A program made the translations under genes and the position numbers. Of a stretch of DNA of 64,000 nucleotides, positions 29 through 21,281 are shown in pieces (position 1 is the first letter of the stretch; every line of letters begins with the position of its first letter). The notes under the pieces are model-generated. The model was not told the DNA's origin, ran no database searches, and saw only the letters and a list, made by a program, of their open reading frames with translations. The DNA is from a virus: the IMG/VR virus record IMGVR_UViG_3300042453_004886, positions 96,001-160,000 of that record; one strand, 5' to 3'.

Positions 29-3000
29 ATGCGTGGAGCGCTTACCGTGCAAGAATTTAGCGCGGCAGCTGTTGTGGCTGCAGGTATTGATTCTGCATAC
101 AGTCAGCTAAACTCTGAGGCAGCAAAACTTACTGGATCCTACAGCGAACATATTTTAGATAAAACTGTGTTTGCAAGAATGATAAAAAAATCTATGAAGG
201 AAGGCTTCAGAGAAACCTTTAAAAACTTTGAAGGTCTTCCCCTTGGCCAGTCTTCTCACGCAAGATCTTTCAAAAGACTTATCTTTGGCTTGACTGTTAG
301 AGAACTATCAAAAGGTACGAGCTTATCTGAGACCGAGAAAAAGGTTTTACTTGAGCAAGCAAGGCTGATGGGCCTTAACAAGACTGAGTCTGGTTTAGTT
401 TCAAGAATACTTAGAAAGGTAGCCGCGTTATTTGGGTTTAAAACACCGGATACTAAAGTTGCTTCTCTCTTGGATCTTTCTGATTACCCTGAAGTAGACC
501 CACACACTCTCGATAGAAGCTTTTACTTGGATGAATTTGATTACGATACAGATTTGATGGGTAATAAAATACAGCACAAAGCAAATGCTCCCAGCGAAGT
601 TATACGTGTACTCGAAAACGGAACCCGAGTAGAAAAATCAAAATTAAGGTTCACCGTACTTGCTCAGAGTCTAAGTCACGAAGCTCCTGCAAACATCTTT
701 ATAACAGAAGGTTTTAACGAGCTTTACGCGTTTAACTACGATTCAACTGCAGAAACTCTCTACGGTTTTCTAAACGCCGCTAAACCAGATGCTCTACCAC
801 AGCGTCAGCAGAACATGTTGGGTTCTGACACTGGTTTACTTACAGTTACGGGTAGTGCGGCAGAATATATTAAAAAAGTAAAACTAAAAATAAAAGGACC
901 TGAAAAGGACTCAGCAGGAAACGTTTTAGAATCTCGTGCAAGGTTTGGAAACAGATTTAACATCCTACTTATGAATGGTATGGGTGAATCTACCTTCATG
1001 AACTCAAAAGTCATGAATGGTGCCTATGTTACCCGAGAAATCAAAAAAACAAAAAGTTACTTTACAGGTAGCGTAGGTGGTTCGATTACAAATGATGAAA
1101 TATCATTTATTGACCAAAGACTGAAACGGGACAAAGAAGGTAACTGGACTTTATACGATCCAAAAAGTAAAAAATACGAAAGAGTATCCCAAGAGGATGG
1201 AAAACCACTTCTTACAATAGATATAGATCAAAGAAACATAAAGCTTTTGGAATTCTTTAACTCCGAGGGGGTTAAAACCGATTCCACAATGCCAAACCCT
1301 ATCTATGACATGTCCGGGCACAAACTGGAAATCATGGACATACAGACCAGTATGGGTGCCAGTGGAAAGCTCGAAATAGAGTTCAACTACAGGGTTCTTT
1401 CACCTGCAGGCGGATCTATGAGAATCTTGTCCAGCGGTCTAAAAATGGTCACTGTAGGTGTAAAGGGTGGCTTTTTTGATGTCATTGCAGGCGGAATAAA
1501 CAAATCTATTGAGTCTTTAAAATCCGAGGACTTGACCTATAGAACAAAAGAAGGCGGATCCTTAAGTCTTGGTACCTACGGAGAATTCTATCAAGACGTG
1601 TTTACCATGTGGGGTAAAAAAATAGATCCCTCGATGTCTGAAAAACAAAAAGAATCCATGACAGGTGAAATGATTCACTTGATGGTAGGTGAATCTATTG
1701 TAAAAACAGGCGTTGTATTCCTGCAGACAGCTGCAATTCGTTTAGAAGAAAAAAGATTTTACAGCAGGGTTGTTGACATATTTAGTGATGACGCAAAGTT
1801 TGATGTATTTAAAAGAATGCTTGAAAGCTTTGAAAAACAGTCTGAATCAGCAAAAAAAGGTACCGGTATTAATAGGACTATCTTAAAAGGTATCAATCAT
1901 CTTTTAGGAGGCTCTGGCTTAGACGAGGTAAAACTTACCGAAGAGCTTAAACAAAAAAATAGAAAAAATCTACTTAAGTCAATCAGATCAATAAGAAATA
2001 AACTACTTAGAGGTGACGATTTCGGTACCGTACTCAGTAGCATATCGGACAAGCACGCCCTGACAGCGGCAGCAGCCCTGCACGTCATGCAATCCATGCT
2101 GGCTGGCGTAAAAGCAGATAGCTTCATGGAAGAGACGTCCAGGCGTCTTTCTGGTGCGGCTATCACACCGATGAACGAACCTCAATTTGACTTTAGCACG
2201 CCGGTTCCCTTGGTGCTTGACGACGCTTTCTCAGTAAAAGCTTTTCCAATGTCTAACCGCATGAGCGCTCTTATGCCAGGAAACCAAGCTGGTAGCCATA
2301 CTCAAACTGTTCTTGGAGCTCTGTCTAGAAACCTGGGAGTCGAAAAACGAGATAGACAGCTGTCAGAACTTTTTTCGCTGGCTTACTTGGGAGGAAGTGC
2401 AACTCAGATTGCTCAAAGAGCACTCGGTAAAAAATCAAAGGTATCCATCAAAGATCTTAGTTCATTCCATCAAGATTACATGCCAAGTCTTCTTATTGGT
2501 GGTGTCAACTTTGAACCACTTGCTTATGCATTTGCAGGCATGTCCAGAGAACACGAAGCTGCGTTTGGAACTATAACAGATTCAGTAAGAAGGCTTACAT
2601 ATGAAGATCTAAGTCCAGAAGAAATAAAAATAGAAGAAGCTAAGGCTATAGAAGCAGTAAAAAGTTTAGGTACACCAGGTACAAGAATTGCTCAAAACTT
2701 TTCTTCTGGTGTGCAGTCTGCAAGATCAGACATGAAGATATTTGAGCTCATGAAAAAATACAAGGTAGGCTCACCTAGAATGAGAATACCTGTTTTTGAG
2801 TTTACTGCTGTAGGTAGCGGCAGAAACAGATTCAGTGCTTCAAACCTTGTGGCCTATGAAGAGGTCTCGTTGCTCTCTGCTGAAACGTTGACGGAACTTC
2901 AGGGTGTGTTTAGCGACTTTTCCTCCGAAATATTTGACTTGCACGTAGAAGCAATGCGAGGGCTGCACAAAGTAAGAGCTCTCAGGCTTCAAATGGCTGC

Positions 3001-6000
3001 TACAGGAGGTTTGGTTACAAAAGAAACCAGAGACCAGTACTTGGGATACTTGGACAAGATAAGAAGGCTTCAAAGCGAAATAGAAAACCTTGCTGCAACA
3101 GATGTTCAAAAATCCGGAGCAAACATTATTGGAGGCTTTGCTGTAATTGCTAACTTTATACCTGGCTTTCACAACATGAAGCTAGGTGAAGATCAAAACA
3201 TAAGGACTTTTGAAACTTCAATCATAGTTGGTGACGAAGTCATGATGAGAGTCATGAACAAAGCAGAAAAAGCTATGAAAGCAGCAGACTCTCTTGTAGA
3301 TAGAAAAGAGTTCAAAGAAAAGCTATCAAAAAAAGCGCAGAAAGCTATGGATAACCATCTTAAAAAAGTAACAAAAGCTGCAGATGTAAAGTTTGAAGCT
3401 GCCTTGCTTGAAAGCACGGATGACGCAAAAGGATACACTTCTAAAAAATCAGGTGTAGGTAAGATCCTTGAAGGATTTACCAATCTTGGTGCTGACTACT
3501 ACAAAAAAATGAGTACTATTTCGTCAACTTCCACATTCTTGAATAGTTTAATAAACATAAGTGAAGCATTTGAAACTATTTACGGAGTTCAGATATCTGG
3601 AAAAACTAATATTGATGACGTTGTAAAAACTTTTACAAGATCAGACGATACTAGTTATTTCCGTACACAGGGCTCTCAAGATTTTTCACAAAACATTCAA
3701 CAGCTAAAAGCTTTAAAGCACGCTCAATCTGTACTTGGAACAGGGACAAGTACATACCTAGACAGTGAGCTACAAGTTCACAAAGAAAACATTCTAAAAG
3801 GTGTAGCTAATACAATCAAAGCACTCCAAAACGAAAAGAAATACGGTCAAGAAGTAGCTACACTAGCAAAATCATTTGAAGCTCTAAGAAAAGACCTTTT
3901 CTGGGTTAATCGAGTAAAAGAACTTAAAAAGATTGGCGAGGGCGGAGAGTTTGAAAGCGTTCAGGAAGCAAGAGATATTATCTTTAATAAGTTATCAAAA
4001 GTAACCGATTTTATAAGATACTTTGAAGATACCCCAAGACTAGGACTGGACAGAGATATAATTCTTCAAAGATTAAGGAAAGACAGAGATAAACTATTAA
4101 AAGAAAAATCAATCGTTGACACAATTATTAAAAAAGAACAAAGAATTATAGACAACGAAGATAAAGTAAAAAATATAATACGTTCCATACAAAAAAAGAG
4201 TCAAGGATCTACTCTTGGTGAAGTTTTAAGTGAAAGAACAAAAGTTACAGAAGAAAACGGAGAAAAAAAGAAGTCTGTATCAACAGAAGTTATTGGATCC
4301 TTTGGTCAAGCAAACGTTGACTTGTTACGGGTACAACTAAGCATATTTGAAAACAAAGCCAGAATGGCCGGGCTGTCTAAGGGTGTAGCAGACGTTCTTC
4401 ACGACACAATAAGAATGAAGAAGTTTGAAATTGCACTCTACGAAAATAGATTAAACCCTGCTGACTTAAGAAAAGGTATAGATACTTTAAAAAATCTAAT
4501 TAACTCAACAAATAATATGAGCGATAAAAAGTATTACGGAAAAATGCTTGATGTTGCTCAGTACAGGTTAGAAGTATCTACAGGCACTAAACGTAGTAAA
4601 AACAACCTTATAAAGAGAAGCGCAGAAGACGTATCTCATGCTCTCTATGCAGCCGGATTTAGCGTTCTTCAAGCTGTGGAAGATGAGTCTTCTCAAAACT
4701 CATTTGGCAGTGAAGACGAAACTGTAAAATATGTAAGAAAAGTTCAAAACCTTCTTGGTGTTTCTAATGTAAAAAATGCACTTCAACTAAGAAGTTACTT
4801 AAGAGGCATAGGGCTAGAATCTGCTTACAGCAGAGCGGGTGCTCCACTTGGATCTGAAGGTGGTGTCAAGTCTGCTCCTATATTCTCAATAAGAGAAGGA
4901 AATAGAATATTCAGACAGCTTGGTACAAGTTTTGAACTTGATGAAAAAGCCAATAGACGTTCTATATTCTTACACATGAGCGGAATGGCTCTTAATCTGG
5001 GTGACTTTGACGGTGACGTTGCAATTCTCACAACTATTGAAAGATACACATTCCTTGAACACTTAAAGCACAAACTCGGTGGAGAAGATAACCTTATTGA
5101 CGTAGAAAGATCTGCAAAAGAACTCATCAAGCAGCTTGAGCAAGCGGGTGCAGATAAAGGCACCATAGATGAATATAGGCTTCTTATAAGCAAACAACGA
5201 GATCCACTTACTAATAACTTGCTAAACCTGAAAGAAGAATATTTAAATCTAAAAACTTCTGTTACGGACTCAGCAAGAAGACTTGTAAGCACTCACATTG
5301 CCGAATACTGGGGTCTTGGAGAGAATGGTCTTTCAAAGCTTGCAGCAAACTATTATGGTAACGCTTACACGGATCCTGATGCTGACAAAGAACTTCTTGA
5401 ACAAAGACTTGCTGTCAAGCTCAATAAGTTCTCGAGTGATATGTACAGCAGCCTTCGCGAAAAAGCATCCAAACTCATAGATAAAAAGATAGCTCAATCA
5501 GACAATTTTGATAAGACTGCAAAAGCTTATGAAGCTCTTCAAGATAACGAAGAATACAGAAAGCATGTAAGAGAGTGGGTTAATAAAGATTCAGGAGCTC
5601 TTGTTGAAGAAAGTTTGGGTGATTTAAAAAACATTTTCAGCACAATAGCCGGTGTTGAGATGTCAGCAGATGAGATTTTAAGATTTGGTATCAAGACTGC
5701 TTTTGCATCTACAAAACTGATTGGTAACTTCTCTAATTTGCAAAATACCCAGCACGCACTATCCACCATGAGCAAGTTTGCAAGTCAAAAATTTTACACT
5801 GACGTTATAAACACATATGCAAATGTAAGTGGTGGGGACATCAGAGCAGTTGCTCCAGAAATTGAGTCCCACTACCAGCAGCTTCAAAAAGAAAAGCAAG
5901 AAACGTTAAATATTATTGTTAGCAGTAATCAGGGTTTCATGCAAAGACTGCAGCAGGCAACTCGTGATGCAATCAAGCCAAAAACTTCAGGTGCTACAAG

Positions 6001-8045: not shown

Positions 8046-8411
8046 GACGTCATCTTGCCCCCAAATTTATTTTGAACCCTGGTTTTTATATACTGCCCTT
8101 AAATATTCTAGGATATTCTAGATATTCTTGTCTATAAAATTTATTGAAATAAAATCTAGATTTTCTGTATGCTGAAAATTTTTTAGCTATAAATTTCAGA
8201 TTACTTTATTTGAAAAATTCATTAGAAAACTTGCGGGATATCAATATAGGAAAATCTATATTCTAAACAGCGAAAGTAGAGCTGGATGGATGGGGTTCTA
8301 TATGGTCCCCCGGACACCCCCCTACACCCTACAAGGGTTTAGGGTATCGGTGTTCGTTCTGGACCATAGAGCCACACCTGTGCGTGTGGCCATGCTGCAT
8401 AGGAGGAAACC

Positions 8412-8915
8412 ATGCAGTTCAAGAAGAGCAAGCCCGTCAAGGGCAAGAAGCCCGTCGTCGCCGTGCCCGCCGCCAAGCCCCGCAAGGGGCTTCTGGCCCG
8501 GGTCGCGGAGGCCCTTGGCTTCGGCGCTCAGGCCCCGGTCCGCGACAGCGAGCTGGCCCAGTCCAGAATCTCCCGGGTTCTCCTCGACAACGCCCTCCGG
8601 GGCGAGCGCGAGTTCTCCACGGAGCTGATCAATCGGAGTCGCAAGACTCTGGAAGATCAGATCCGGGCGGTCCGGGCGGCGGGGGACTTCCGGGCCCCCA
8701 AGGCCGAGGCCCAGAACGTCGCTCCCGCTCCCGTCGTCGCCGCCGCTCCTGTCGCCGCCCGGATCTGGGGTGTTTTCAACACCCTTGACCGGGCCCGGCT
8801 GCGGGCGTGGTCCAAAGCTTGGGTCCAGGCCCAGGCCGAGGCCCAGGCCCAGGCCCAGGCCCAGCCCGTCGCCACCCGGGCGCGGGATTCCCGGGGGCGG
8901 TTCGTGAAGGCGTAA
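8412..8915 (+). CDS. Ala-rich basic early protein, paralog A (C-terminal RDxRGRF motif)
   Basis: AGGAGG Shine-Dalgarno; Lys-rich N-terminus; ends RARDSRGRFVKA; highly similar to 9143-9640. Confidence 0.8.
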   Translation: MQFKKSKPVKGKKPVVAVPAAKPRKGLLARVAEALGFGAQAPVRDSELAQSRISRVLLDNALRGEREFSTELINRSRKTLEDQIRAVRAAGDFRAPKAEAQNVAPAPVVAAAPVAARIWGVFNTLDRARLRAWSKAWVQAQAEAQAQAQAQPVATRARDSRGRFVKA

Positions 8916-9015
8916 GCCTCACGACCGGCCCAAACTCCCCATGGGCCTTGGTAACCCATGGGGACGCGACAGGTTTAGTAGTCTCATCCTATTAGAAAAA
9001 CTACTTTTCTTTTTC

Positions 9016-12550: not shown

Positions 12551-12557
12551 AACTCAC

Positions 12558-12612: not shown

Positions 12613-12672
12613 TGGATGCATTGGTTTACCCCTTTGTTACGCGGCCATCTCTAAAAGAAAGGAGGTGATTAC

Positions 12673-12801: not shown

Positions 12802-12819
12802 TTTTTTCGTTTCTTTTCC

Positions 12820-12851
12820 TACTCGGCGCTAGCGCCGCAATGCGATGAGTA
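12820..12851 (+). repeat. Branched hairpin element copy B
   Basis: TACTCGGCGCTAGCGCCGCAATGCGATGAGTA. Confidence 0.8.
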
Positions 12852-12855
12852 GGCT

Positions 12856-12916
12856 CTTTTTGAGAGGGTAGTAGCTTTAGCTGCTGCCCTCTTTAAAAAG
12901 AGGGACCGGTGCGTAC
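12856..12916 (+). promoter_or_regulatory. Hairpin-repeat element copy 7
   Basis: Same type as copy 3 + GAGGGACCGGTGCGTAC. Confidence 0.7.
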
Positions 12917-13011
12917 TAGCACTAAAGGTTTCCTCCCAGAAACAAAGGAAGATGAGCTCACTCGGTGAGATCTTCCTTGCTGTCAGAGACAGCAATGTTG
13001 CGTACATAAAA

Positions 13012-13053
13012 GCGGGGTCTAACCCCTCTTTAAAAAGAGGAATTGGTGCGTAC
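13012..13053 (+). promoter_or_regulatory. Hairpin-repeat element copy 8 (short hairpin)
   Basis: GGGG-TCTAA-CCCCTCTTTAAAAAGAGGAATTGGTGCGTAC, directly upstream of RNAP-like gene 1. Confidence 0.65.
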
Positions 13054-13171
13054 ACGCATTAAATGTCTTCCTTTTTTCCCCGGATTTTTTATCGCGTAAT
13101 CCGGTGATCGCCATATACTTGGCGCCCTTTGCTCGGGGAGAGAGCGTTTTCAGCGCATGAGGAGGAAACCA

Positions 13172-16100
13172 ATGCGTATGAACAAATTGGTGAATCAAAA
13201 GCACCAAGCGCTGGCGAAGCTGGCGGTGGAGAGATTCAAGAAAGCACAGGAAGCTCCTGAGGAGAAACCTGAGCCGACTATGGATCTCATCGCTCGGGCG
13301 AACGAGAAGGCTGTTGAATACAGCCGGCTTCGTAAGCTTGCCCTTGAAGTTCTCTCTCATGAGAGCTCTGAAGAGGGCTGTGTCGAATTCGGGATCAAAC
13401 CTGAAGACGACATGGGCGTAATTCGCCGCAAAGTGGTGAACCGTTTCAAAGCGGGTAACCACTCGGTGGTCCGGGGCGAGCTCAAGACGCTGTTCCCTCG
13501 TCACGAGGAGGACATCTACGAGCCCGCCGAGGTCACCAAGCAGGATGTTGCCGACATGGCACTCCTGTTCGGCGCGGAGTGGCCCACCGACGAAGCCTTC
13601 GGCTTGTTCGGTGTTACCTTTGACTGGGACAATGCCGGAAGGCTTGTTGTCAACGGTAAGAAGGCTCTGAGGAACGTCATCGCCGTTTTCGGTGGTGGTA
13701 TGCCTCACGAGCTCTTTCAATATCAGACTGCAGCTCTGGTATTGTTGGCCGCCCAAGGTGCTGCAGCCCAGGAGCGTGAGAGGTTTGCATCAAACGCAAG
13801 CCCTTACCAGGTCCAGAAAGCGCTGACGAAAGCCTTCCAGAAGGTGATCAACAGCGGGCCTGTGAACAAGGGTAGCGAACAACCGGCCTACGGGTTTGTT
13901 GATGCAACCTGTGCGCTCCGACTCAAGGAGATCGTTCGACCGATCGAAGTCCTGCTGGTAGAAGATAGCATCGTCTACCTGGAGCAGATTGATCCCATTC
14001 TTGGCAACAAGATGGTGAAAGAACTGCACCCGGACTACGGTGTGGATATCGAATCGGGTAACTACCGGCCTGCCGGTAAGATGCTCGACGAGAACCACAT
14101 CGCGGTAAGGTCGAGCGATGGGGCCAAAAGTGCCAAGCGCACCCGTATGGCCTCAGGTGAGCAACAGGAACCGGTGAATCCTGTGCTCTCTCGTGTTTCC
14201 TACAGAGGAACTCGAGCAACCGGCTCCCTGATCACCGCGTTCCTTGCGCCGTGTGCAGACCCGTTCTTGGCGGGTGGTCCTGGCGGTAGCCTTGATTTGT
14301 CGGGTGAAACCGGCGTCAAGACCAGCTACTGGGACGACGCGCTGCACAGCGGCACGAGCTTCGATATCCGTTCCGCCGAGGATAGAGAAGCCTTCCTGAA
14401 CACCCTCCCCAGCGATGGGGATGTTCTCGGCGAGACCCTTAGCGTGTTTGGCGCCCCACCTGTCAAGGTGCCTTCAGACGCTAGGGGCGTGGTCACTAAG
14501 GTGACCGCGGCCCCCGATGGAGCCTACCGCAATATGCGGTGGCAGGTGCATAGTCGTTTCAAGGAAACTTCTGTGTTCACCAAGCTCCGCGGATCAATCA
14601 AGACGATGGTCTCTGCAGGCCTAGTTGCGAAGATCCGACTCGGGGAAGGGTCCATCACCCACTTCGACATCCGCAATAGCGGACTTGCCCTGTCGGGGTG
14701 GGAAGGAGAGGATTTGTTCCTCTCAGGAGACGCATTCAAGGGAACCGGGAAAGGCAACAGCCAATTCCGGGTGGAAGTCGCCGTTGAAACGATATGGCAT
14801 TTCCTTCCTTTGGAAGCGGACAGTCTCCTATCCTCTCTGCTCCCGGAGGCGCTCTACAAGGGCGGAATCGTGGAGTATGACGAGGCGTTCGATCTCGACG
14901 GGGCTTACGAGCCTCTGATGAGGGAATTCGAGCGTCGTTTTGCCAAAGTCGCTGACCTTGGTAAGACAGTCGAACTGCCTGAAGTCTGGGACAAGTGGTT
15001 GCTTGAGCATGCCACGAAGGTCGGGCTGAAGGTGGAAGACCTCGTCTGGAGCCCCTTCCAAAAGGAGGGAGTCACTGGCAAGCAGGTGGCTTTCAACATT
15101 GGTAAGGGTATCACGGGGCTCCCAGAGTACCGCGTATTTGTACTTTACGACGATGGCTGCAAGGCTGTTGTGAGGACCACGACTGCGTTTAAAACCGCGA
15201 TGTTGGTCCGTGTAGAGTACGGAAGCGTCAGGAAGGCAGCCAGCAAGGCCCAACTTATGCTCGAAGTCGCTTACGGCGCTAAGGCAATGGGTCTTGACGA
15301 GCTCGCTGAGTTCCTCGAGTACGAGGGGCGTTCCAAAGCGCGTGCGGTGCTCAAGCTCATCCGTTCGGTTGGTCCCAAGGCAGCAATTGCTGAGGGAAGT
15401 CGAGTAATCGATGCCGCCGAAGCAACGGATGAGGACCTGCTTGAGATCGAAACCCTGCTCGAGAGTGATCTCGAAGCATGGCCGGAAGATCTTGTTATCG
15501 AATGCAAGTTCGAGGACAAGAACGGAAAGCTGTGGAGAGTTGTCTTGGCTCACCACTTGGTTTCGGTCATCTCAAAGGAGAACCCCCAGAGAAAGGCAAT
15601 CTCTGGCATTCTCGATGCGATCCTTAACAAAGATCGTACAAGGTTCGAGAATAACATCCGGGTCCTTGAAGGTGGGCTGTCTAACATGGTTTCTTTGGCC
15701 AATAAGAAACTGTGGAAGAAGGTTCACGCAGGTCCAAATGCTGCACACGGTAAGCGGGTCATCGTACTCGCCTCTCACGTGGGCTGCCATGAGGAACTGC
15801 TCGTCAATCCGTTCGGCAAAAATGCTAGACATCTAGCCAAGCAGAACGGTTGCGAGATCAAGGAACTGGATGGGCGGTGGGTAGTCGTCCAGCGAGCTCC
15901 ACAAAGCCTGCCGATTTTGCTGAGAATCGTGTTAACCACGGCTATCGGTAAGAACGTGTTCGGCATGACGGACCTTGCTGCCTCGATCGACAACGGCGAT
16001 CACGATGGAGACACTATCCTCGTGACGGTCATCCCTGACCAAATCGCCGAAGTGACCCTGCAGAAGTACAACGCTCGCAGAAAGTCGCTGTCGATTCACG

Positions 16101-16975
16101 AGGGTACGCACAAGGCGGATCCGTATCACTGGATCGAGCAAAACACGTTTGTGGATGGAAAACACAACGTCTGGGCTCGTCCTTCCGTGGTTACGGTTGA
16201 AAACTTGCGCAAGTACGACGAGGCGGGCATCCGGGCATATACACTTGAAATGCCTTCGGATGCCAACAGGGCACACCTCGCCCTTGCCATCGCTTCGATG
16301 CAGCTTCCCACAGGCTGGGGGGAGTTCAGCATCGAGGAGGCCAACGGCCTGATGTTCAGCGTCTACGAGCCGGAGCTTGGTGGTTTTAACCCCAAGTTCG
16401 CTGCTGCTCATGCCGCAATTGCCAATCTTGGCAATGAACGTCTCAAGGAGTTCCTCCAAGCTACGGATAAGCTCGACCTTCGGGAAGACTTCGCCAAGGC
16501 TTGGCTTCGGTCCGCAGATGCCAAAAGCTGGTGTCAGAAGACCGTGAGTTACGCAAAGTTTAACAGCAATGGAAAGCTTTCCGTATGGAACCTCACCCAG
16601 GCCACGGTCCCTCAGGAGCAGAGGCTCGCAGCCGTACCCAGGTTAGTTGCTTTTGCAATGAAACTCCTGTCAGTTGGGAACGTCAACAACCAGTTGATGC
16701 TCAATCTGGACAAGGTCGTTGTCGAGAGCATGGTCAAGGAGACCAAGGGCGAAAACCGGCGTTACTACCCGGTTCTAGTCAAGGGTAAGCCAGAAGTGGT
16801 CGAGCTGAAAAGCGTGATCAAGAAACTGGCAGCAAAGGGAGTCCCGGGCGCTCAGCGCTTGGAGATCTGGATGGACCACATCCTCCCTGAGTTCTCCAAG
16901 TACCACCCCAAGGAGTACCATGCCGCAATGGCCTTCAACGGGGACTACGATTGTTCCGATTCGGAGGAAGAATAG
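13172..16975 (+). CDS. Single-chain two-barrel RNA-polymerase-like protein, paralog 1
   Basis: VVVQRAP...[14 protein letters not shown] (nt 15998-16012) matches beta-prime NRAP...[29 protein letters not shown] resembles [28 protein letters not shown] supplies a DPBB-B-type lysine pair. GAGGAGG SD before ATG 13172. Confidence 0.72.
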   Translation: [1267 protein letters not shown]

Positions 16976-17070
16976 CAAACTGATCGGGAACTTGGCGGCT
17001 TTGTCTTAAGAACGCACAGAAAGTGCAAAAGCAAAGCTGCTAAGTTACCTGATCAAGACAACTAAATAAC

Positions 17071-17132
17071 CTTTTTAACAGAGGGGGCTGGTTCATTCCA
17101 GTACCCCTCTTTAAAAAGAGGGACCGGTGCGT
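17071..17132 (+). promoter_or_regulatory. Hairpin-repeat element copy 9
   Basis: GAGGGG(G)CTGG-TTCATT-CCAG(TA)CCCCTC + TTTAAAAAGAGGGACCGGTGCGT. Confidence 0.7.
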
Positions 17133-17190
17133 CGGTGCGTCCAAGGTGCAACCCTTTTGCGGCCACTTAATCACGAAAGGAGGTGATTAC

Positions 17191-17310
17191 ATGATGGAAG
17201 ACTTCCTCGCGGAGGCCATCCTCCGGGCTGAAGAAGCTGCCGAAACGGCAGCAGCCCGGGAGGAGTGGGCAGCTGCTTTTGAAGCCCTGGACCAGTGGGT
17301 CTGGGGCTAG
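17191..17310 (+). CDS. 39-aa acidic helical peptide, copy 2 (not in ORF track)
   Basis: AAGGAGGTGA SD; MMEDFLAEAILRAEEAAETAAAREEWAAAFEALDQWVWG. Confidence 0.75.
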   Translation: MMEDFLAEAILRAEEAAETAAAREEWAAAFEALDQWVWG

Positions 17311-17332
17311 TTTCTTGTTTGTTTTCCTTTCC

Positions 17333-17364
17333 TGCTCGGCGCTAGCGCCGCAATGCGTTGAGTA
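17333..17364 (+). repeat. Branched hairpin element copy C
   Basis: TGCTCGGCGCTAGCGCCGCAATGCGTTGAGTA. Confidence 0.8.
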
Positions 17365-17368
17365 GGCT

Positions 17369-17427
17369 CTTTTTGAGAGGGTAGTAGCTTCGGCTGCTGC
17401 CCTCTTTAAAAAGAGGGACCGGTGCGT
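17369..17427 (+). promoter_or_regulatory. Hairpin-repeat element copy 10
   Basis: Same type as copies 3 and 7, directly upstream of RNAP-like gene 2. Confidence 0.7.
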
Positions 17428-17548
17428 CGGTGCGTCCAAGGTGCAACCCTTTTTGCAGGTTTTTCTCGTGGAACCTGATGATCGCCATACAGCTGGCGCC
17501 TTTTGGTCGGGGAGTGACCGCATGCTAGTCGAAAGAAAAGGTAGGACT

Positions 17549-20500
17549 ATGATGTCCGAATACCTGAAGCTTCGCGAATCGGTAGCAAGTGCTCTGTTGG
17601 GTGACACCAACGAGCACGGGCTGCCGCCCGTCGAGGCCGGCTTCGAAGCCTTCAGCAGACAAACTGCTAAGGCGCTGAAATCCTTGGGAATGGCATTCCA
17701 GGGTGCAACCCTTGTGGAAGAAGAGTTTAACAGACTCTTCGGAAACTTGGGCGATCACGGGTGGGAGCTCACCCCCGTGGACCAGATGGACCTTGTTGTC
17801 CTCTCGGTTATGCTGGGAGCGCAATTCCAGGGATGGGAGACAATTTCCTTTGATAAGGAGATTCTCTCGTTCGATCAGGCTGGCAACCTGGTCGTCGGTG
17901 GCCGCAAGGCTATCGGCCCCGTGCTGCTCGTGCAGAGCGTCAGGGATCTTGGGAATCCCGTCGTCGTAAATACGGCGGTGCTTTCCAAGTACCAGGCCGC
18001 GGCCTACGTCATGCTTCTCGGAGCACGTCGTGGCCTGAGTTCCGCCTTGAAGGCGTGCGACCGGTTCCTCATCGATCCCGAACAGGGGTTCATCGATGCG
18101 GATCGGAAAAGACTCCTTGACGGGAGTCTCCGCGTCGTCGAGGTAGAGCTCCTTGGCAATCTGCTGGAGCCCGTCGAAAAGACCGACCGTCTGCTCGTGA
18201 ACTCGGTGGTTCGGGAACTGCTTCCCAACTACCGCGTTCGCGCCTCAAAGGACAGCTACGCCCCATTCGGAAAGCTGGCCCCGGTACCTGGTTTCCTCGA
18301 CGTTCCAACCGTCGACGAGGCCAAAGGCGTGAAGCGGGCGGATGCCGCAGATGTCACTCAGTGCAGACCGGTTAACCCCGAGCTCTGCGCTCTGTCGTAT
18401 CAAGGCACGCGGGGCACAGGCGTTCTCTTGGACGTCTTGCTCGCCCCGTGCGGTCTCGCGACACTCACCGGGTTCGGAGACGGAACCGCTGCAGTGCTCT
18501 CCCGAGAATTCGGGGACAAGGCAGCCTTCCATGATCCGTTCGTGGTGAGGGCCACCAGTTTCGCGGTCAAGAGCCAGGAGGACTGCGAAAAGTTCATGGC
18601 GACTATTCCCAAGGTAGGGGAAGAACTCGTCGGCAGCAAGTTGAGCGTGCACGGTGCGCCAACGAAACTGTTGCCCCTTGGCAAGAAGCTCGTCACCGGG
18701 GTCTCCCAAGCCACGGAAGACCCCACGTATGGCAACATACGCTGGGAAGTGAGGGGCGAGGCAATCGACCGTAGCGGAGATGGTAAGCTCCGCGGGCTTC
18801 TCAAAGCCATGACGGTGTTCCCAGCCGTCAAGATCCACCACGGGCATGGCTTCCCGTGGAAGGAACTTACCAGGAACGAACTCGTCATCGCCCTTCCGGG
18901 CAATGTTAGGACGAAGTTTGACCTCCTAGCCGGGATGGCGTGCTGGAAAGGCAGCGGAAAAGGCTCGGGTAAAAACCGGGTCGAGACCGCCGTCCAGACC
19001 TTCAAGCGGCACCTTACCCATGATGAGTTCGAAACTCACATGGGGGAGGTACTCCCCGCTGAGGGCTTCGACGCCGATGGCACCCCACGCTACGACGAGA
19101 CCGTAGACGTGGGTGGAGGATACTCACAGCTGGTCCAGTCTTTCGAGGAGCACTATGCTGTTCCTCTTAGGATTGGCCGTCTCATCGCCAAGGACCTGTG
19201 GTCCAGGCTTCTGGATGCTTACCTCAGACAACTGGGTAAGCGGAAAGCAGACCTGGAGTGGGAGCCCACCCCGATTGGTGGCCAGGCAGCCAGCTTGGAA
19301 ATCATGAAGGGAATCACGGGCAAACCGGAGGTGCTTACGTTCGTCGTCCTTGACGATGGGCGGACAGCGCTTGTGCAGCAGACAACTGCATTCACCACAG
19401 CCATGGTGCTGAAGGTGGAGCACACGTCTGTTGCCCGGAGCGTGTCGATCGCGCACATGATGCTGGACGCTGCCATAGCGTTCAAGGCACTTGGGCACGA
19501 GAAGACCGCTCGTTACCTTGAAGAACAGTCCAGGACCCCTGCAAAGGGTGTCGAGCGGCTGTTTGACTTGGTAAACGGGCACATCCCGGTCAGCCACAGG
19601 ACCGTCGGTCTCCACCCCGGCAAAAGCCGGCTGCTCCCCGAGGGAACCGCCATGCTCAAGGCCATTATCGAGAGCGATCTCGAGACCTGGCCTGCTGATC
19701 TCTGCCTCAGTGCAGGGCTCAACGAGCAGGAGTTCTGCGTCGACAGGACCGTTCTGGCAACCATGCACGCGGAATCGCCGCAGCGGGGTGCCGTGAAGGG
19801 GCTGATCGAAGCAGCTCTTGGCGGGGATCTCACCCGGTTCCAGAACAATTTCCGGACGCTTCGCGCCGCTTTGCACAAGATGCTCAGCGCCGCGAACAAG
19901 GGTTTCTTCAAGAAGCTCATGTCTGGACCGCGAGGCTCCCATGCCAAGCGTGTCCCGATCACCTCGTCCGGTGCTGCTCATGATGAACTTCAGATCCACC
20001 CAAAAGGGCAGGTCTGGAGGAATTTGGAAACCATCTTGGGAGAGAAGATGGTGGACGGGCAGTATGTCCTGCTTCTCCGGGCGCCGATGAAGACCCCGAG
20101 CTTGCTCAGGGTCAAGTCGTCGTTCTCCGTAGGGGTGAACAAGTTCGCCGTCTCCGAGAAAACCGCGTCGTCGTCACGAGGTGATTTCGATGGAGAAGGC
20201 GTCGTAGTCGTCCCGCTGTCCCAAGAGGCCGTCGAGGAGCTTCTGAGCGCTAACTACAGCGCTTGGGAGCTCAGCTTGAAAGCTCACTCGATCAAGACGG
20301 GAGGCGAATTCCACTGGGAAGACGCCAACCTGCTGATCGATGGAAAGCACAACGTTTGGGGTAAAGCCAAGCGTGTGTCGATCCAGAGCTCGATCGCGCT
20401 CGATGAGGGAACCATCCGGGCCTACCGCATGGAAATGCCCGGCGACGCCAACAAGGCCACCATGGCCCTCATGTTGGCTGCAATGGGCAAGTACCAGCTG

Positions 20501-21127
20501 AACAACGTCCTTGGGCTTCTCTTCGAAGTCTGGGAGGCGGAGCTTGGCGGGTACGATCCGAAGTTTGCTGATGCCCACAAGGCAATGCAGATCGAGGATC
20601 CCATCGAGCGCGAGGAGGAGTTCCTCAAGGCATGCGCCAAATTGAACTTCACGGAGGAGTTCGGGCGTGCTTGGCTTTCCATCTCCGCGGCGAAAACCTC
20701 AACGATGAAAGCCCTTCAGAAAGGCTATCTCATTGGGGAGCACATGACGTTCCGGCACGTCATCAGCCAGAGCACTCCTGCCGACGAACGATCGATGTCC
20801 GCATGGATGGCGATCGCGTTCGCGATGAAGCTGCTTTCGAGCGGTGAAATCAACAACGAACTCATGCTCAACCTCGATATTGCCCGAGTTGAGAATTGGG
20901 TGGTTGTCGGTAAGGACCGGAAAGGCAAAGACATCCAGCGCCCCACCGGAGAAAGCTACGACCTTGCACAAGGTATCAGCTTCCTCTGGAAGCAGGGGCA
21001 CCCTGCGGCTACTCGGCTGCAGCACTGGATGATGGCGGTTCTTCCGAGGCTGCGCGAGTTGAGCAAGGAGAAATCCTACAGGGCTTTCAGCCCGGACATG
21101 CTCAACAGCTCATCTGAGGAAGACTAG
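17549..21127 (+). CDS. Single-chain two-barrel RNA-polymerase-like protein, paralog 2 (DFDGE variant)
   Basis: YVLLLRAP...SSRGDFDGEGVVVVP (nt 20183-20197); GKLRGLLK; colinear similarity to 13172-16975 along its length. Start chosen at the ATG after AAAGGTAGG (ORF track start 17441). Confidence 0.7.
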   Translation: MMSEYLKLRESVASALLGDTNEHGLPPVEAGFEAFSRQTAKALKSLGMAFQGATLVEEEFNRLFGNLGDHGWELTPVDQMDLVVLSVMLGAQFQGWETISFDKEILSFDQAGNLVVGGRKAIGPVLLVQSVRDLGNPVVVNTAVLSKYQAAAYVMLLGARRGLSSALKACDRFLIDPEQGFIDADRKRLLDGSLRVVEVELLGNLLEPVEKTDRLLVNSVVRELLPNYRVRASKDSYAPFGKLAPVPGFLDVPTVDEAKGVKRADAADVTQCRPVNPELCALSYQGTRGTGVLLDVLLAPCGLATLTGFGDGTAAVLSREFGDKAAFHDPFVVRATSFAVKSQEDCEKFMATIPKVGEELVGSKLSVHGAPTKLLPLGKKLVTGVSQATEDPTYGNIRWEVRGEAIDRSGDGKLRGLLKAMTVFPAVKIHHGHGFPWKELTRNELVIALPGNVRTKFDLLAGMACWKGSGKGSGKNRVETAVQTFKRHLTHDEFETHMGEVLPAEGFDADGTPRYDETVDVGGGYSQLVQSFEEHYAVPLRIGRLIAKDLWSRLLDAYLRQLGKRKADLEWEPTPIGGQAASLEIMKGITGKPEVLTFVVLDDGRTALVQQTTAFTTAMVLKVEHTSVARSVSIAHMMLDAAIAFKALGHEKTARYLEEQSRTPAKGVERLFDLVNGHIPVSHRTVGLHPGKSRLLPEGTAMLKAIIESDLETWPADLCLSAGLNEQEFCVDRTVLATMHAESPQRGAVKGLIEAALGGDLTRFQNNFRTLRAALHKMLSAANKGFFKKLMSGPRGSHAKRVPITSSGAAHDELQIHPKGQVWRNLETILGEKMVDGQYVLLLRAPMKTPSLLRVKSSFSVGVNKFAVSEKTASSSRGDFDGEGVVVVPLSQEAVEELLSANYSAWELSLKAHSIKTGGEFHWEDANLLIDGKHNVWGKAKRVSIQSSIALDEGTIRAYRMEMPGDANKATMALMLAAMGKYQLNNVLGLLFEVWEAELGGYDPKFADAHKAMQIEDPIEREEEFLKACAKLNFTEEFGRAWLSISAAKTSTMKALQKGYLIGEHMTFRHVISQSTPADERSMSAWMAIAFAMKLLSSGEINNELMLNLDIARVENWVVVGKDRKGKDIQRPTGESYDLAQGISFLWKQGHPAATRLQHWMMAVLPRLRELSKEKSYRAFSPDMLNSSSEED

Positions 21128-21217
21128 CTGTGTCACAAATAAACTCGAGCTATCCCACGAACGCACACGAAGTGCAAGGGATGCTCGAGTTTTGCTGTGA
21201 TTCGATCAACTAAATAA

Positions 21218-21281
21218 CTTTTTAACAGGGGGGCTTGGTTCATTCCAATGCCCCTCTTTAAAAAGGGTAACTGGTGCGTAC
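21218..21281 (+). promoter_or_regulatory. Hairpin-repeat element copy 11
   Basis: Hairpin like copy 9 + TTTAAAAAGGGTAACTGGTGCGTAC, then an ACCCCT box. Confidence 0.65.

What the first reader, a model, noticed from the sequence alone, without database searches (positions are those of the whole stretch)
29..21281. Candidate three-polymerase transcription system: giant virion RNAP, own hairpin promoters, two tandem single-chain RNAPs with peptide partners
Seen: three separate ORFs carry a beta-prime-like R(A)P...DxDG(D/E) catalytic loop. One is in the AT-rich giant gene and two lie in a GC-rich block where nearly every gene is preceded by the same hairpin element. Established: coliphage N4 uses an injected virion RNAP on hairpin promoters to express a second phage RNAP. 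crAss-like phages inject a large single-chain two-barrel RNAP, and SPbeta YonO is a single-chain two-barrel RNAP. Inference: the giant protein is injected and reads the hairpin promoters, and the two paralogs then transcribe middle and late genes. I do not know of a described phage with this exact combination.
Basis: partly seen in the sequence, partly recalled or inferred. Interest (0 to 1): 0.92.

Follow-up and report, generated by a model that had tools for sequence, protein, structure and literature searches.

The report
Cyanophage with its own two-barrel RNA polymerases
A 195-kb freshwater phage related to Microcystis phage Ma-LMM01 carries two tandem single-chain RNA polymerases of an unannotated family, a conserved transcription signal between its early genes, and a giant protein that may be a third, injected polymerase; Ma-LMM01-type phages were reported to use host RNA polymerase only.

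Summary
Three ORFs, and no others in the 194,626-bp genome, carry a DxDG(D/E) loop in a plausible context.

- **ORFs A and B.** A is 13157-16975 and B is 17441-21127. They are 33% identical paralogs. With a 39-sequence alignment, AlphaFold2 models A at pLDDT 91.6. In an unbiased search of 48,161 PDB chains, the top 14 hits are all two-barrel RNA polymerases (QDE-1 Z 10.7, RDR2 Z 10.1, P74-26 gp62 Z 8.8, P23-45 gp96 Z 7.2). A and B are therefore single-chain two-barrel RNAPs. The family has no Pfam or PHROG model and includes the "hypothetical" MaMV-DC ORF65L and Ma-LMM01 gp064.
- **The element.** Eleven copies lie on the coding strand only, at 9043-21281. The element recurs next to RNAP homologs (26-45% identical to A) in three independent metagenome contigs. 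Its hairpins favour the sense strand, so it is not an N4-type template-strand hairpin. It most likely combines a terminator or processing hairpin with an invariant 30-nt phage promoter.
- **The giant.** It is really 3297 aa, with an N-terminal PLD domain. It is the positional ortholog of Ma-LMM01 gp080. NLGDFDGD is the only long invariant run among three cyanophage giants. Its polymerase fold, its presence in virions and its reading of the element were not shown.

The closest precedent is Thermus phage P23-45 (virion plus non-virion two-barrel RNAPs). This is a new variant of a known kind.

The parts
1..7759 (+). C-terminal 2585 codons of a 3297-aa giant ORF (it starts 2135 nt before the window). 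It has an N-terminal PLD-like domain outside the window and is a candidate third, virion-delivered polymerase.
   Evidence: ORF and full length. PLDc_2 E 8.8e-13. Collinear weak BLAST to MaMV-DC ORF82L (3560 aa). Synteny with the capsid, sheath and ORF84 genes.
4994..5017 (+). NLGDFDGD loop of the giant (residues 2377-2384).
   Evidence: It is the only invariant run longer than 2 residues in a 1228-column alignment of our giant with those of MaMV-DC and Microcoleus phage My-WqHQDG. hhalign places it on the GDxDGD of the A family, but over only 22-29 columns.
8060..8300 (.). Very AT-rich (20-32% GC) divergent intergenic region at the left border of the GC-rich block, holding the only cluster of sigma70-like hexamer pairs.
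   Evidence: sites at 8105-8173 on both strands.
8300..28300 (+). GC-rich block of early-type genes (GC 0.55-0.63). All genes are on the + strand and almost all are ORFans.
   Evidence: Both junctions are bridged by independent Logan contigs. Relative L006 shows the same GC drop and the same border repeats. Window 22728-23105 matches MaMV-DC ORF62L, which lies in the region corresponding to Ma-LMM01's early genes.
9003..9098 (+). Element copy 1 (core 9043-9072). This and all other copies consist of a long hairpin, the invariant box CCCTCTTTAAAAAGAGGGACYGGTGCGTAC, a second hairpin in about half the copies, and ACCCCTTTT.
9728..9823 (+). Element copy 2 (core 9768-9797).
10048..10143 (+). Element copy 3 (core 10088-10117), upstream of the 483-aa gene.
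10198..11649 (+). 483-aa ORFan of the block. Part of it matches MaMV-DC ORF68L (44% over 77 aa).
11689..11784 (+). Element copy 4 (core 11729-11758).
12251..12346 (+). Element copy 5 (core 12291-12320).
12543..12638 (+). Element copy 6 (core 12583-12612), upstream of peptide ORF 1.
12673..12801 (+). 42-aa acidic, Ala-rich peptide ORF with a strong Shine-Dalgarno sequence; paralog of the ORF at 17191-17310.
   Evidence: (repeat family D11, 95% identical).
12847..12942 (+). Element copy 7 (core 12887-12916).
12984..13079 (+). Element copy 8 (core 13024-13053), directly upstream of RNAP A. It lacks the long upstream hairpin.
13157..16975 (+). RNAP A: a 1272-aa single-chain two-barrel RNA polymerase with an intact GDHDGD loop.
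   Evidence: AF2 pLDDT 91.6 and pTM 0.90. Foldseek top 50 hits are all RNAP beta or beta'. VIA: QDE-1 Z 10.7-11.0 over model residues 7-953. Profile match to the beta' catalytic barrel.
14582..14602 (+). KLRGSIK motif (K476, R478, K482), invariant in the 12 close homologs. It lies in the beta/Rpb2-like half of the model, just after a flap-like (SBHM) domain.
   Evidence: The beta/Rpb2 match covers model residues 4-397, and beta-flap matches cover model 90-169. Lipoyl/biotinyl-type hits at profile positions 424-481.
15893..16012 (+). Catalytic beta'-like double-psi barrel segment of A, from RAP to GDHDGD.
   Evidence: Aligns in register with Thermus beta' residues 694-760 and E. coli beta' 416-511. 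DPBB structures match model residues 561-690.
17065..17160 (+). Element copy 9 (core 17105-17134), upstream of peptide ORF 2.
17191..17310 (+). 39-aa peptide ORF, paralog of the ORF at 12673-12801.
17360..17455 (+). Element copy 10 (core 17400-17429), directly upstream of RNAP B.
17441..21127 (+). RNAP B: paralog of A, 33% identical over the full length. The longest ORF starts inside the element, so the real start is probably ATG 17522 or 17549. Its loop is GDFDGE at 20180-20197, with Glu in place of the third Asp, and it sits on a long branch in the tree.
   Evidence: (the only family member with E at that position).
21212..21307 (+). Element copy 11 (core 21252-21281), after RNAP B. It is the most divergent copy.
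28350..28680 (+). Array of about 33-50-nt repeats at the right border of the GC-rich block (units such as TTCAGTATCTCCACTAAATAAAGGTTTACCCC and ACTACACTAGCGCTAGTG).
   Evidence: The same sequences lie at the same border in relative L006.

Best explanation
The window lies in a complete 195-kb freshwater phage genome that is distantly related to the Microcystis phages Ma-LMM01 and MaMV-DC (genus Fukuivirus).

Shown:
- A and B are tandem paralogs of a single-chain two-barrel (double-psi beta-barrel) RNA polymerase. A beta/Rpb2-like half carries a flap-like insert and invariant K/R/K residues. It is followed in the same chain by a beta'-like barrel carrying RAP...GDxDGD, arranged as in QDE-1 and RDR2.
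- The family is unannotated and rare: about 40 cluster representatives among 1.8 billion. It includes MaMV-DC ORF65L and Ma-LMM01 gp064.
- The genes sit in a 20-kb GC-rich block of early-type genes.
- The first ten or so genes of the block are separated by a conserved composite element of about 90 nt, found on the coding strand only.

Inferred:
- The element is a transcription punctuation unit. Its first part is a long sense-strand RNA hairpin that terminates, processes or stabilises the upstream transcript. Its second part is an invariant 30-nt box, CCCTCTTTAAAAAGAGGGACYGGTGCGTAC, with a downstream GGTYTAACCCCTTT. Together these serve as a phage-specific promoter, so each gene is its own unit read by a phage-encoded polymerase, not by host sigma70 holoenzyme.
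The best candidate is the 3297-aa giant (PLD domain plus invariant NLGDFDGD). It would be a very divergent virion-delivered two-barrel RNAP, as in P23-45.
- A, which has an intact triad, would then be the main non-virion enzyme.
- B has GDFDGE and a long branch. It would be a specialised or weakened copy.
For: A and B are RNAPs:
- They are 33% identical over the full length.
- An exhaustive HMM search found 40 relatives of about 1200 aa, nearly all with GDxDGD.
- The 39-sequence profile hits the bacterial beta' catalytic barrel in register, with about 45 of 49 PDB hits being beta' (best E 0.0055).
- The AF2 model of A residues 301-1272 has pLDDT 91.6 and pTM 0.90.
- The Foldseek top 50 hits are all RNAP beta or beta' at probability 1.0.
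- VIA-align against 48,161 representative chains puts two-barrel RNAPs in all of ranks 1-14. Examples: QDE-1 Z 10.7 with 453 residues aligned over model 7-951, RDR2 Z 10.1, P74-26 gp62 Z 8.8, AR9 and phiKZ nvRNAPs Z 7.6-7.9, P23-45 gp96 Z 7.0-7.2. DPBB and beta-flap domain matches fall at the expected places.
- The best hit in BFVD is a MaMV-DC protein (E 7.7e-19). hhalign of the family against MaMV-DC ORF65L gives probability 98.4% and E 9.5e-15.
- The genome has no Pfam RNAP domain of any other kind.

The element:
- It has 11 copies, on the + strand only, confined to 9043-21281.
- The same 30-nt box flanks RNAP homologs in L002, L003 and L004, whose proteins are 26-45% identical to A.
- No sigma70-like hexamer pair lies at any copy, and there is no Rfam family.
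- The inner stems vary while keeping their pairing. 18 of 207 pairs are G-U, and the + strand is more stable than the - strand by up to 10 kcal/mol.

The giant:
- NLGDFDGD is the only invariant run longer than 2 residues among three giants that are 19-21% identical.
- It is a positional ortholog, lying next to the ORF84, capsid and sheath genes.
- The sequence SI.LH sits at the same distance from DFDGD as in beta' (read).

Context from the cultured relative:
- In Ma-LMM01 the early genes gp054-gp063 lie directly downstream of gp064. They are strongly expressed at 1 h, when gp064 is barely expressed (class B5). gp064 therefore cannot make the early transcripts (PMC5780444).
- P23-45 shows that a virion plus non-virion two-barrel RNAP cascade exists (PMC10770324).
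Against: - No fold evidence for the giant. It has no Pfam, PDB or profile match beyond the motif. Large searches found no homolog.
- A DxDGD match by chance in a 3297-aa protein is not rare (my estimate, roughly 8%).
- Ma-LMM01 gp080 is a middle-class gene, and no virion proteomics is at hand.
- The first gene of the block has no element and sits behind sigma70-like hexamers, so host RNAP could start the cascade.
- The element is far better conserved than the RNAPs beside it, which is unexpected for a promoter that co-evolves with its polymerase.
- Its hairpins look like RNA structures, so part or all of the conservation could be post-transcriptional.
- B's Asp-to-Glu change may mean it is inactive.
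- No RNA data exist for this phage.
Confidence: 0.6

Rival explanations
1. Host RNA polymerase starts the cascade and the giant plays no part in transcription. Host sigma70 holoenzyme fires from the AT-rich region at 8.1 kb, or at weak sites, and makes the first A/B mRNA. The element is the promoter of the A/B polymerases themselves, as with T7 class II/III promoters. The giant is an ejected PLD-type nuclease, lipase or tape-measure-like protein whose DFDGD loop binds metal for some other purpose.
For: - Three of the five sigma70-like hexamer pairs in 13.8 kb cluster at 8105-8173, just upstream of the first block gene, which has no element.
- The element co-occurs with A-family genes on every close relative's contig.
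- No polymerase fold has been shown for the giant.
- The Ma-LMM01 study predicted sigma70-type promoters for all gene classes (PMC5780444).
Against: - Strong hairpins (-20 to -28 kcal/mol) sit between all genes and would hinder read-through from 8.1 kb to A at 13.2 kb.
- The count of sigma70-like sites is not above chance overall (5 found against 3.5 +/- 2.0 expected).
- The 30-nt box is identical beside RNAPs that are only 26% identical. T7-type promoters diverge with their polymerases (my knowledge).
- NLGDFDGD is the single conserved block of the giants.
- The Ma-LMM01 promoters were BPROM predictions only, and no rifampicin test was done.
Confidence: 0.25
2. The element acts only at the RNA level. 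It would be a terminator, an RNase III/E processing site or a stabilising 5'/3' hairpin cassette in one long early transcript, with no promoter function.
For: - Hairpin 1 and hairpin 2 use G-U pairs and are clearly more stable on the sense strand.
- The inner stems change sequence but keep their pairing, and several have UUCG-type loops.
- Relative L006 keeps only the hairpin plus CTCTTTAAAAAGG after its RNAP gene.
Against: - The best-conserved part is the invariant sequence CCCTCTTTAAAAAGAG and the adjoining G-GTGC--T positions of the box, which extends into the segment after hairpin 1. A mere hairpin would not need that.
- Copy 8 (13024) keeps the box without the long hairpin, directly upstream of RNAP A.
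- There is no U-tract after the stems, and the terminator scan picks up none of the copies.
Confidence: 0.1
3. The GC-rich block is not part of this phage. It would be an assembly chimera or a foreign element recently inserted, so the three genes would not belong to one system.
For: - GC jumps from 0.40 to 0.60 within about 200 nt on both sides.
- In run X1 the block's contigs have 35-41x k-mer depth against 14.7x for the flanking 56-kb contig.
Against: - Logan contigs of X1 bridge both junctions. A 56-kb contig covers 7000-8816, and a 13-kb contig runs from 17424 to about 30.5 kb.
- Relatives L006 and L007, from other runs, show the same GC drop and the same border repeats.
- Block genes have homologs at the syntenic place in MaMV-DC: ORF68L, ORF65L and ORF62L.
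- CheckV rates the record 100% complete.
Confidence: 0.03

Closest known systems
Thermus phage P23-45 and P74-26: gp96 virion RNAP (fused to the tape measure protein) plus gp64/gp62 non-virion RNAP (PMC10770324)
   Same: - Two very divergent single-chain two-barrel RNAPs in one phage, recognised at first only by a DFDGD motif in a giant virion protein.
- The virion enzyme reads a conserved motif in a compact pre-early block that contains the second RNAP gene.
- Model A matches gp62 (Z 8.8, 376 aa aligned) and gp96 (Z 7.0-7.2).
   Different: - There is no detectable sequence similarity.
- Here there are two non-virion paralogs in tandem.
- The giant carries a PLD domain and has its motif at residue 2380 of 3297, not near the N-terminus. 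It is not shown to be a tape measure protein or a virion protein.
- The early block is GC-rich in an AT-rich genome.
- The signal is a composite of a hairpin plus a 30-nt box.
QDE-1 and RDR2 (eukaryotic cellular RdRPs, Pfam PF05183)
   Same: They are the best global structural match. Both barrels lie in one chain in the same order, with 421-453 residues aligned across model residues 2-952 at Z 10.1-11.0.
   Different: Identity is only 9-12% and no profile match was found. The context here is a phage early gene, so DNA-dependent transcription is expected. Template preference was not tested.
Coliphage N4: virion RNAP on hairpin promoters, then RNAPII
   Same: The logic of an injected giant polymerase that expresses a second phage polymerase from a repeated, hairpin-containing early signal.
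   Different: - N4 vRNAP is a T7-like single-subunit enzyme. No PF00940 match was found here, though the tool's own control found none in any genome either, so this blank says little.
- N4 hairpins are short (5-7 bp stem, 3-nt loop) and form on the template strand (my knowledge). Here the hairpins are 10-20 bp, tolerate G-U pairs and favour the sense strand.
crAss-like phage phi14:2 gp66 virion RNAP (PDB 6VR4)
   Same: A large virion-packaged single-chain two-barrel RNAP that transcribes early genes.
   Different: The structural match to model A is weak (Z 4.4). gp66 early transcripts have no common upstream motif, and middle and late genes use host RNAP (10.1101/2020.03.07.982082).
SPbeta YonO
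   Same: A single-chain RNAP of about 100 kDa with very distant homology to beta and beta' (PMC5467207).
   Different: It was not compared directly here, because no YonO chain appeared among the hits. YonO is a lone enzyme of a temperate Bacillus phage that transcribes late genes.
Ma-LMM01 gp064 and gp080, MaMV-DC ORF65L and ORF82L (annotated as hypothetical proteins)
   Same: - They are true homologs and positional orthologs. The RNAP family match to ORF65L has probability 98.4%.
- The giants are collinear and share NLGDFDGD.
- Capsid, sheath and ORF84 synteny is shared.
   Different: - These phages have one RNAP copy, not two, and it is longer (1673-1677 aa).
- They have no strongly GC-rich block.
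- The 30-nt box was not looked for in these genomes.
- The literature treats these phages as dependent on host sigma70 only (PMC5780444).

Membership tests
Two-barrel (double-psi beta-barrel) RNA polymerase superfamily: ORFs A and B | A beta'-type double-psi barrel carrying the metal-binding DxDGD loop, preceded by R-x-P. | tested here: met
   The profile aligns in register to beta' residues 694-760 and to E. coli beta' 416-511. DPBB structures match model residues 561-690, which hold GDHDGD. R908 and P910 are invariant, and D943, D945 and G946 nearly invariant, in 39 sequences. B has GDFDGE.
Two-barrel (double-psi beta-barrel) RNA polymerase superfamily: ORFs A and B | A second, beta/Rpb2-type barrel with conserved basic residues, in the same active-site module. 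| tested here: met
   Model residues 4-397 match Rpb2 and beta chains at Z 9.1-9.8 with 255-277 residues aligned. K471, R473 and K477 (P0001 numbering) are invariant in the 12 close homologs. Beta-flap matches fall at model residues 90-169. hhalign against the E. coli beta sequence alone found nothing.
Two-barrel (double-psi beta-barrel) RNA polymerase superfamily: ORFs A and B | Both barrels in one polypeptide, with the global arrangement of single-chain members. | tested here: met
   QDE-1 matches at Z 10.7-11.0 over model residues 7-953, RDR2 at Z 10.1-10.8 and P74-26 gp62 at Z 8.8 over model 1-952.
Two-barrel (double-psi beta-barrel) RNA polymerase superfamily: ORFs A and B | Bridge helix and trigger loop after the catalytic barrel. 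| tested here: inconclusive
   The model has long helices at residues 714-747 and 810-831 after the barrel, and the global matches extend to residue about 950. The individual elements were not mapped.
Two-barrel (double-psi beta-barrel) RNA polymerase superfamily: ORFs A and B | Template-dependent RNA synthesis. | not testable with these tools
   Needs purified protein.
Two-barrel RNA polymerase: the 3297-aa giant | A DxDGD loop that is conserved in homologs. | tested here: met
   NLGDFDGD is invariant in the giants of this phage, MaMV-DC and Microcoleus phage My-WqHQDG, and is the only invariant run longer than 2 residues.
Two-barrel RNA polymerase: the 3297-aa giant | Double-psi barrel fold around the loop, plus a second barrel. 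| not tested
The atlas lead to RdRP PF05183 scores only 0.78.
Virion (injected) RNA polymerase | The protein is present in the virion and acts before any phage protein is made. | not testable with these tools
   The only evidence is indirect: the gene lies beside the structural module, and Ma-LMM01 early genes are expressed before gp064.
N4-type hairpin promoter | A short hairpin (5-7 bp stem, 3-nt loop) extruded on the template strand and read by a T7-like vRNAP. | tested here: not met
   The hairpins are 10-20 bp long, contain G-U pairs and are more stable on the sense strand, for example -24.0 against -13.4 kcal/mol. No PF00940 match was found, but the control found none anywhere, so this is weak. 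The 18-nt palindrome is strand-symmetric, so a cruciform cannot be excluded.
Intrinsic (hairpin plus U-tract) terminator | A GC-rich stem-loop followed directly by a run of U. | tested here: not met
   The stems are present, but they are followed by UUU and then A5. None of the 11 copies is picked up by the terminator scan. Termination by a phage RNAP with other rules remains possible.
P23-45-type tape-measure-fused vRNAP | [quoted passage not shown] | tested here: inconclusive
   The giant has no tape-measure, peptidase or membrane-domain Pfam match, only PLDc_2. It is transcribed divergently from the structural genes.

The most novel reading that the evidence does not exclude
A three-polymerase transcription cascade in a cyanophage lineage that includes cultured Ma-LMM01. 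In this reading a PLD-domain giant is injected and acts as a new, extremely divergent two-barrel virion RNAP. It reads a composite hairpin-plus-box promoter that punctuates a compositionally distinct (GC-rich) pre-early block. That block encodes two diverged non-virion two-barrel RNAPs, which divide later transcription between them. This would overturn the view that these phages rely on host sigma70 holoenzyme alone.
Probability: 0.3. Interest if true: 0.9.

Novelty: new variant of a known kind. Interest (0 to 1): 0.78.

Why it matters
**A new polymerase family.** Single-chain two-barrel RNAPs are few and each has been informative: YonO, crAss gp66, P23-45 gp64 and gp96, and QDE-1. This adds a family with no Pfam or PHROG model. 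In the libraries I could search, no paper links it to Ma-LMM01-type phages.

**It can be tested in culture.** The family has members in cultured, bloom-relevant Microcystis phages. The published Ma-LMM01 transcriptome paper concluded that all gene classes depend on host sigma70. It left open how three temporal classes arise (PMC5780444). A phage RNAP, or two or three of them, would answer that question.

**Other features worth study.** Tandem duplication of the polymerase arose twice independently. A 30-nt signal is conserved more strongly than the enzymes beside it. The early block is 20 points richer in GC than the rest of the genome. All three are unusual and give handles on promoter recognition by minimal two-barrel enzymes.

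Tried and rejected
**Searches on A, B and the giant that found nothing**
- Pfam, PHROGs and PDB sequence searches of A, B and the giant found nothing. The only Pfam hit was PLDc_2 on the giant.
- tblastn and megablast against 50,697 phage records found nothing for A, for the first 20 kb of the window or for the giant's N-terminus.
- hhalign of the family against the E. coli beta sequence found no match.

**Structure prediction**
- The first AF2 run on A, with a 3-sequence alignment, was useless (pLDDT 40). It was rescued by the 39-sequence alignment.

**Looking for relatives**
- Word-indexed homolog searches for the giant, at near and shorter lengths, found none.
- Scans of IMG/VR and JGI metagenomes for A relatives found none.
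- An HMM of the 12 close homologs did not find MaMV-DC or Ma-LMM01. The link came from BFVD and hhalign.
- A scan of IMG/VR for the element found one stretch with no RNAP and no other feature of the element, taken as chance.

**Testing the giant**
- The giants' profile against PDB and against the A family matched nothing beyond the 22-29-column motif.
- The protein atlas gave an RdRP lead at 0.78 and a second call with nothing useful.
- In BFVD, a chunk of the Ma-LMM01 giant appeared only at rank 40 with probability 0.21, which is not usable.

**RNA evidence and known RNA families**
- Sequencing runs: no RNA holder is listed, so no expression data are available.
- Rfam found nothing but a sub-threshold miRNA hit.

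**Structure of the element**
- RNAalifold on the MAFFT alignment recovered only the outer 5 pairs of hairpin 1, because the variable stems are not aligned. Folding each copy separately was used instead.

**Hypotheses rejected**
- An N4-type template-strand hairpin.
- A canonical intrinsic terminator.
- An assembly chimera.
- A wider 'GGTYTAMCCC' promoter spread over the genome: the motif occurs only in the elements, in the 28.4-kb array and once elsewhere.

**Not attempted**
- The 'peptide partner' idea was not tested with complex prediction. I make no binding claim, and A plus the peptide exceeds the size limit.

Full report
**Source and setting**

The window is bases 96001-160000 of a single 194,626-bp contig. 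The contig is an IMG/VR virus record that CheckV rates 100% complete. Public runs that hold this stretch are lake-water and freshwater metagenomes from ten studies.

Downstream of the finding lie tail-fibre paralogs, ThyX and other phage genes. Sixteen ORFs match Microcystis phage MaMV-DC at 21-44% identity, with conserved order. These include the capsid gene, the sheath gene and the gene next to the giant. The phage is therefore a distant relative of the Ma-LMM01/MaMV-DC group (Fukuivirus), and its host is probably a freshwater cyanobacterium. The host assignment is an inference.

**The observation**

All three motif-bearing ORFs exist at the stated places. They are the only ORFs of the genome with such a loop in a plausible context.

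The giant is cut by the window edge. It is 3297 aa long and has an N-terminal PLD-like domain.

The GC-rich block spans about 8300-28300, with GC 0.55-0.63 and GC3 up to 0.88. The rest of the genome is at about 0.40.

The repeated element has 11 copies, all on the + strand, between 9043 and 21281, and none elsewhere in 195 kb.

**Is the block an artefact?**

Logan contigs of run X1 bridge both borders. A 56-kb contig reaches 8816, and a 13-kb contig runs from 17424 past 28300.

A relative's contigs from other runs (L006, L007) show the same drop in GC and the same border repeats. Block genes have homologs at the syntenic position in MaMV-DC. I therefore reject a chimera.

One thing stays unexplained. 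In X1 the block's contigs have 35-41x k-mer depth, against 14.7x for the AT-rich flank. This may be GC bias, or the block may be shared by several co-occurring strains. Runs X2 and X3 do show variant cassettes joined at the elements.

**A and B are RNA polymerases**

- *Paralogy.* A and B are 33% identical over their full length.
- *Failure of standard searches.* Pfam, PHROGs and PDB sequence searches found nothing. A word-indexed search of 5.8 billion proteins gave one homolog.
- *Exhaustive search.* An HMM search of 1.84 billion representatives gave 40 proteins. Most are about 1200 aa and nearly all carry GDxDGD.
- *Profile match.* The 39-sequence profile hits the catalytic barrel of bacterial beta' in register, from RAP through DFDGD. 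The best E-value is 0.0055, and about 45 of 49 hits are beta'. It also hits lipoyl/biotinyl-type hybrid barrels just before the invariant K-x-R-x3-K.
- *Model.* With that alignment, AlphaFold2 models A residues 301-1272 at pLDDT 91.6 and pTM 0.90. With three sequences the model was useless.
- *Foldseek.* The top 50 PDB hits are all RNAP beta/Rpb2 or beta' chains.
- *VIA-align.* Run against 48,161 representative chains without any pre-filter, it puts two-barrel RNAPs in all of ranks 1-14. These include QDE-1 (Z 10.7, 453 residues, model 7-951), RDR2, vaccinia, Pol I and plastid beta, P74-26 gp62 (Z 8.8), the AR9 and phiKZ nvRNAPs, and P23-45 gp96 (Z 7.0-7.2). Beta-flap matches fall at model residues 90-169, and DPBB matches fall at 561-690, around the GDHDGD loop.
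- *Link to cultured phages.* In BFVD the best hit is an uncharacterised MaMV-DC protein (E 7.7e-19). hhalign of the family against MaMV-DC ORF65L gives probability 98.4% and E 9.5e-15. Its Ma-LMM01 counterpart is gp064.
- *No other polymerase.* No other RNAP Pfam domain is present in the genome.

*B differs from the rest of the family.* It is the only member with Glu at the third acidic position, and it has the longest branch in its clade. It may be weakened or specialised.

*Duplication history.* In a relative's contig from assembly GCA_041447075.1, two family members (P0006 and P0005) also lie in tandem, with seven small ORFs between them. They are each other's closest relatives (100/100 support). 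Tandem duplication therefore happened at least twice.

**The element**

Each copy reads as follows: a T-run, then AGAGGGG, a variable GC-rich stem-loop, CCCCTC, TTTAAAAAG, AGGGACYGGTGCGTAC, a variable segment, GGTYTAACCC and CTTTT.

Folded as RNA, the minimum-energy form is a long hairpin that includes U5:A5 pairs. About half the copies then form a second hairpin whose 5' arm is the conserved ACUGGUGCGUAC.

The stems contain G-U pairs (18 of 207 in hairpin 1). They are up to 10 kcal/mol more stable on the + strand than on the - strand. The hairpins therefore look like sense-strand RNA structures, or non-template-strand structures. They do not look like N4-type template-strand DNA hairpins.

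They are not followed by a U-tract and are not called as terminators. No sigma70-like hexamer pair lies at any copy. No Rfam family matches.

The same 30-nt box lies beside RNAP homologs on three independent contigs, L002, L003 and L004. Their proteins are 26-45% identical to A and fall in both major clades of the family. A more distant relative (L006) keeps only a hairpin plus CTCTTTAAAAAGG.

An invariant sequence that extends beyond the long hairpin is what a sequence-specific promoter looks like. It is strictly on the coding strand, about 60-100 nt upstream of strong ribosome-binding sites, and is retained at copy 8 without that hairpin. The hairpin in front of it is best read as a terminator, processing site or stabiliser for the preceding gene. 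This reading is an inference. No RNA data could be found.

**The giant**

Large searches found no homolog. The BFVD list pointed to a PLD-domain protein of Ma-LMM01. Scanning MaMV-DC then revealed a 3560-aa ORF (ORF82L) with NLGDFDGD at residue 2537.

BLASTP between the two giants gives several weak but collinear segments (E 0.001-0.13). These cover the PLD region, the motif region and a conserved F-x-Q-x2-QQ-x2-RD-x-IK-x-K block. A third giant was found in Microcoleus phage My-WqHQDG.

In the three-way alignment, which is 19-21% identical, NLGDFDGD is the only invariant run longer than two residues. The giants also lie at the same place relative to the structural genes. The motif is therefore functional, not a chance match.

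Whether it sits in a double-psi barrel is unknown. Profiles see nothing beyond the motif. The protein atlas gives only a weak lead to the RdRP family (0.78).

**Which enzyme reads what**

The element precedes both RNAP genes and both peptide genes. A polymerase that is present before A and B are made must therefore read it, at least at first. The candidates are an injected enzyme and host RNAP.

In Ma-LMM01, the ten early genes gp054-gp063 lie directly downstream of gp064. They are already high at 1 h, when gp064 is barely detectable (class B5). The giant gp080 is also in class B5 (PMC5780444). gp064 therefore cannot make the early transcripts. Either host RNAP or a virion enzyme does. The paper's sigma70 promoters were BPROM predictions, and no rifampicin experiment was done.

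P23-45 shows the virion-then-non-virion scheme with two two-barrel enzymes and two promoter motifs.

My probabilities for the main claims are:

| Claim | Probability |
|---|---|
| A and B are two-barrel RNAPs | about 0.95 |
| The element is a phage-specific transcription signal | about 0.7 |
| The giant is a polymerase | about 0.55 |

The main rival is a start by host RNAP from the AT-rich region at 8105-8173, with the element as the A/B promoter.

**Novelty**

This is a new variant of a known kind. The kind, single-chain two-barrel phage RNAPs and virion/non-virion cascades, is established (PMC10770324, PMC5467207, 10.1101/2020.03.07.982082).

The new points are:
- this family itself, and its presence in cultured Microcystis phages annotated as hypothetical and described as dependent on host RNAP;
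- the tandem paralogs;
- the composite signal, which is conserved beyond the enzymes beside it;
- the GC-rich early block;
- the PLD-domain giant as a candidate virion enzyme.

Full-text searches found no paper that links Ma-LMM01 or MaMV-DC with a two-barrel RNAP. The library is not complete, so prior description elsewhere cannot be excluded.

Noticed in passing
window 28350-28680; L006 11363-11620; L025 13272-13552 (Ma-LMM01 43271-43551): An array of about 33-50-nt repeats marks the right border of the GC-rich block (units with TATCTCCACTAAATAAAGGTTTACCCC and ACTACACTAGCGCTAGTG). It is conserved at the same border in relative L006. Ma-LMM01 has 6.7 copies of a 42-bp repeat between its RNAP gene gp064 and its early genes. 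These could be an origin, a promoter array or a binding-site array.
   Followed up: partly
window 7000-27000, run X1: Logan contigs of the GC-rich block have 35-41x k-mer depth, against 14.7x for the flanking 56-kb AT-rich contig. This may be GC bias or a block shared by several strains. It is unexplained.
   Followed up: no
window 9009-17427, runs X2 and X3: Related strains in other lakes join the cassettes differently at the elements. Examples are 9009 joined to 11665, 9727 to 11656, 10113 to 17369 and 12675 to 17323. One variant continues into sequence identical to L003. The elements appear to act as recombination points that shuffle early-gene cassettes.
   Followed up: no
window 8368-9096 and 9099-9821: A tandem 725-nt duplication (76-96% identical in pieces) encodes two basic, Ala/Pro-rich proteins of 167 and 165 aa with no known family. 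The first copy has no element upstream and the second has one.
   Followed up: no
window 13086-13146 and 17460-17520: The leaders of about 100 nt between the element and the start codons of A and B are 79% identical. They may be a shared translational or transcriptional control region.
   Followed up: no
assembly GCA_041447075.1 contig of 10,936 bp (no DNA held): A relative carries two family members in tandem: P0006 (1035 aa, followed by a 311-aa ORF, possibly a split gene) and P0005 (1342 aa). Seven ORFs of 42-67 aa lie between them. In the tree the two are sisters, so this is an independent duplication.
   Followed up: partly
BFVD hit A0A8S5SD80_1: A 'minor tail protein' of an uncultured siphovirus (ctnpt50) is the second-best viral structural match to RNAP A (E 6e-7, probability 1.0). 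It may be another tail-protein-fused two-barrel RNAP of the P23-45 type.
   Followed up: no
window 50547-58192: Three consecutive tail-fibre-like paralogs (719, 914 and 903 aa) each carry an F5/8 type C (discoidin) domain.
   Followed up: no
window 43757-44665, 45401-46213, 58320-59144: A spore-photoproduct-lyase-like radical SAM protein, a ThyX thymidylate synthase and a ferritin-like domain protein are encoded in the AT-rich part.
   Followed up: no
genome 18870-26873 (-) and 48917-58543 (-), outside the window: Two further giant ORFs (2667 and 3208 aa) lie in the same genome. Neither has a DxDGD-type loop.
   Followed up: partly
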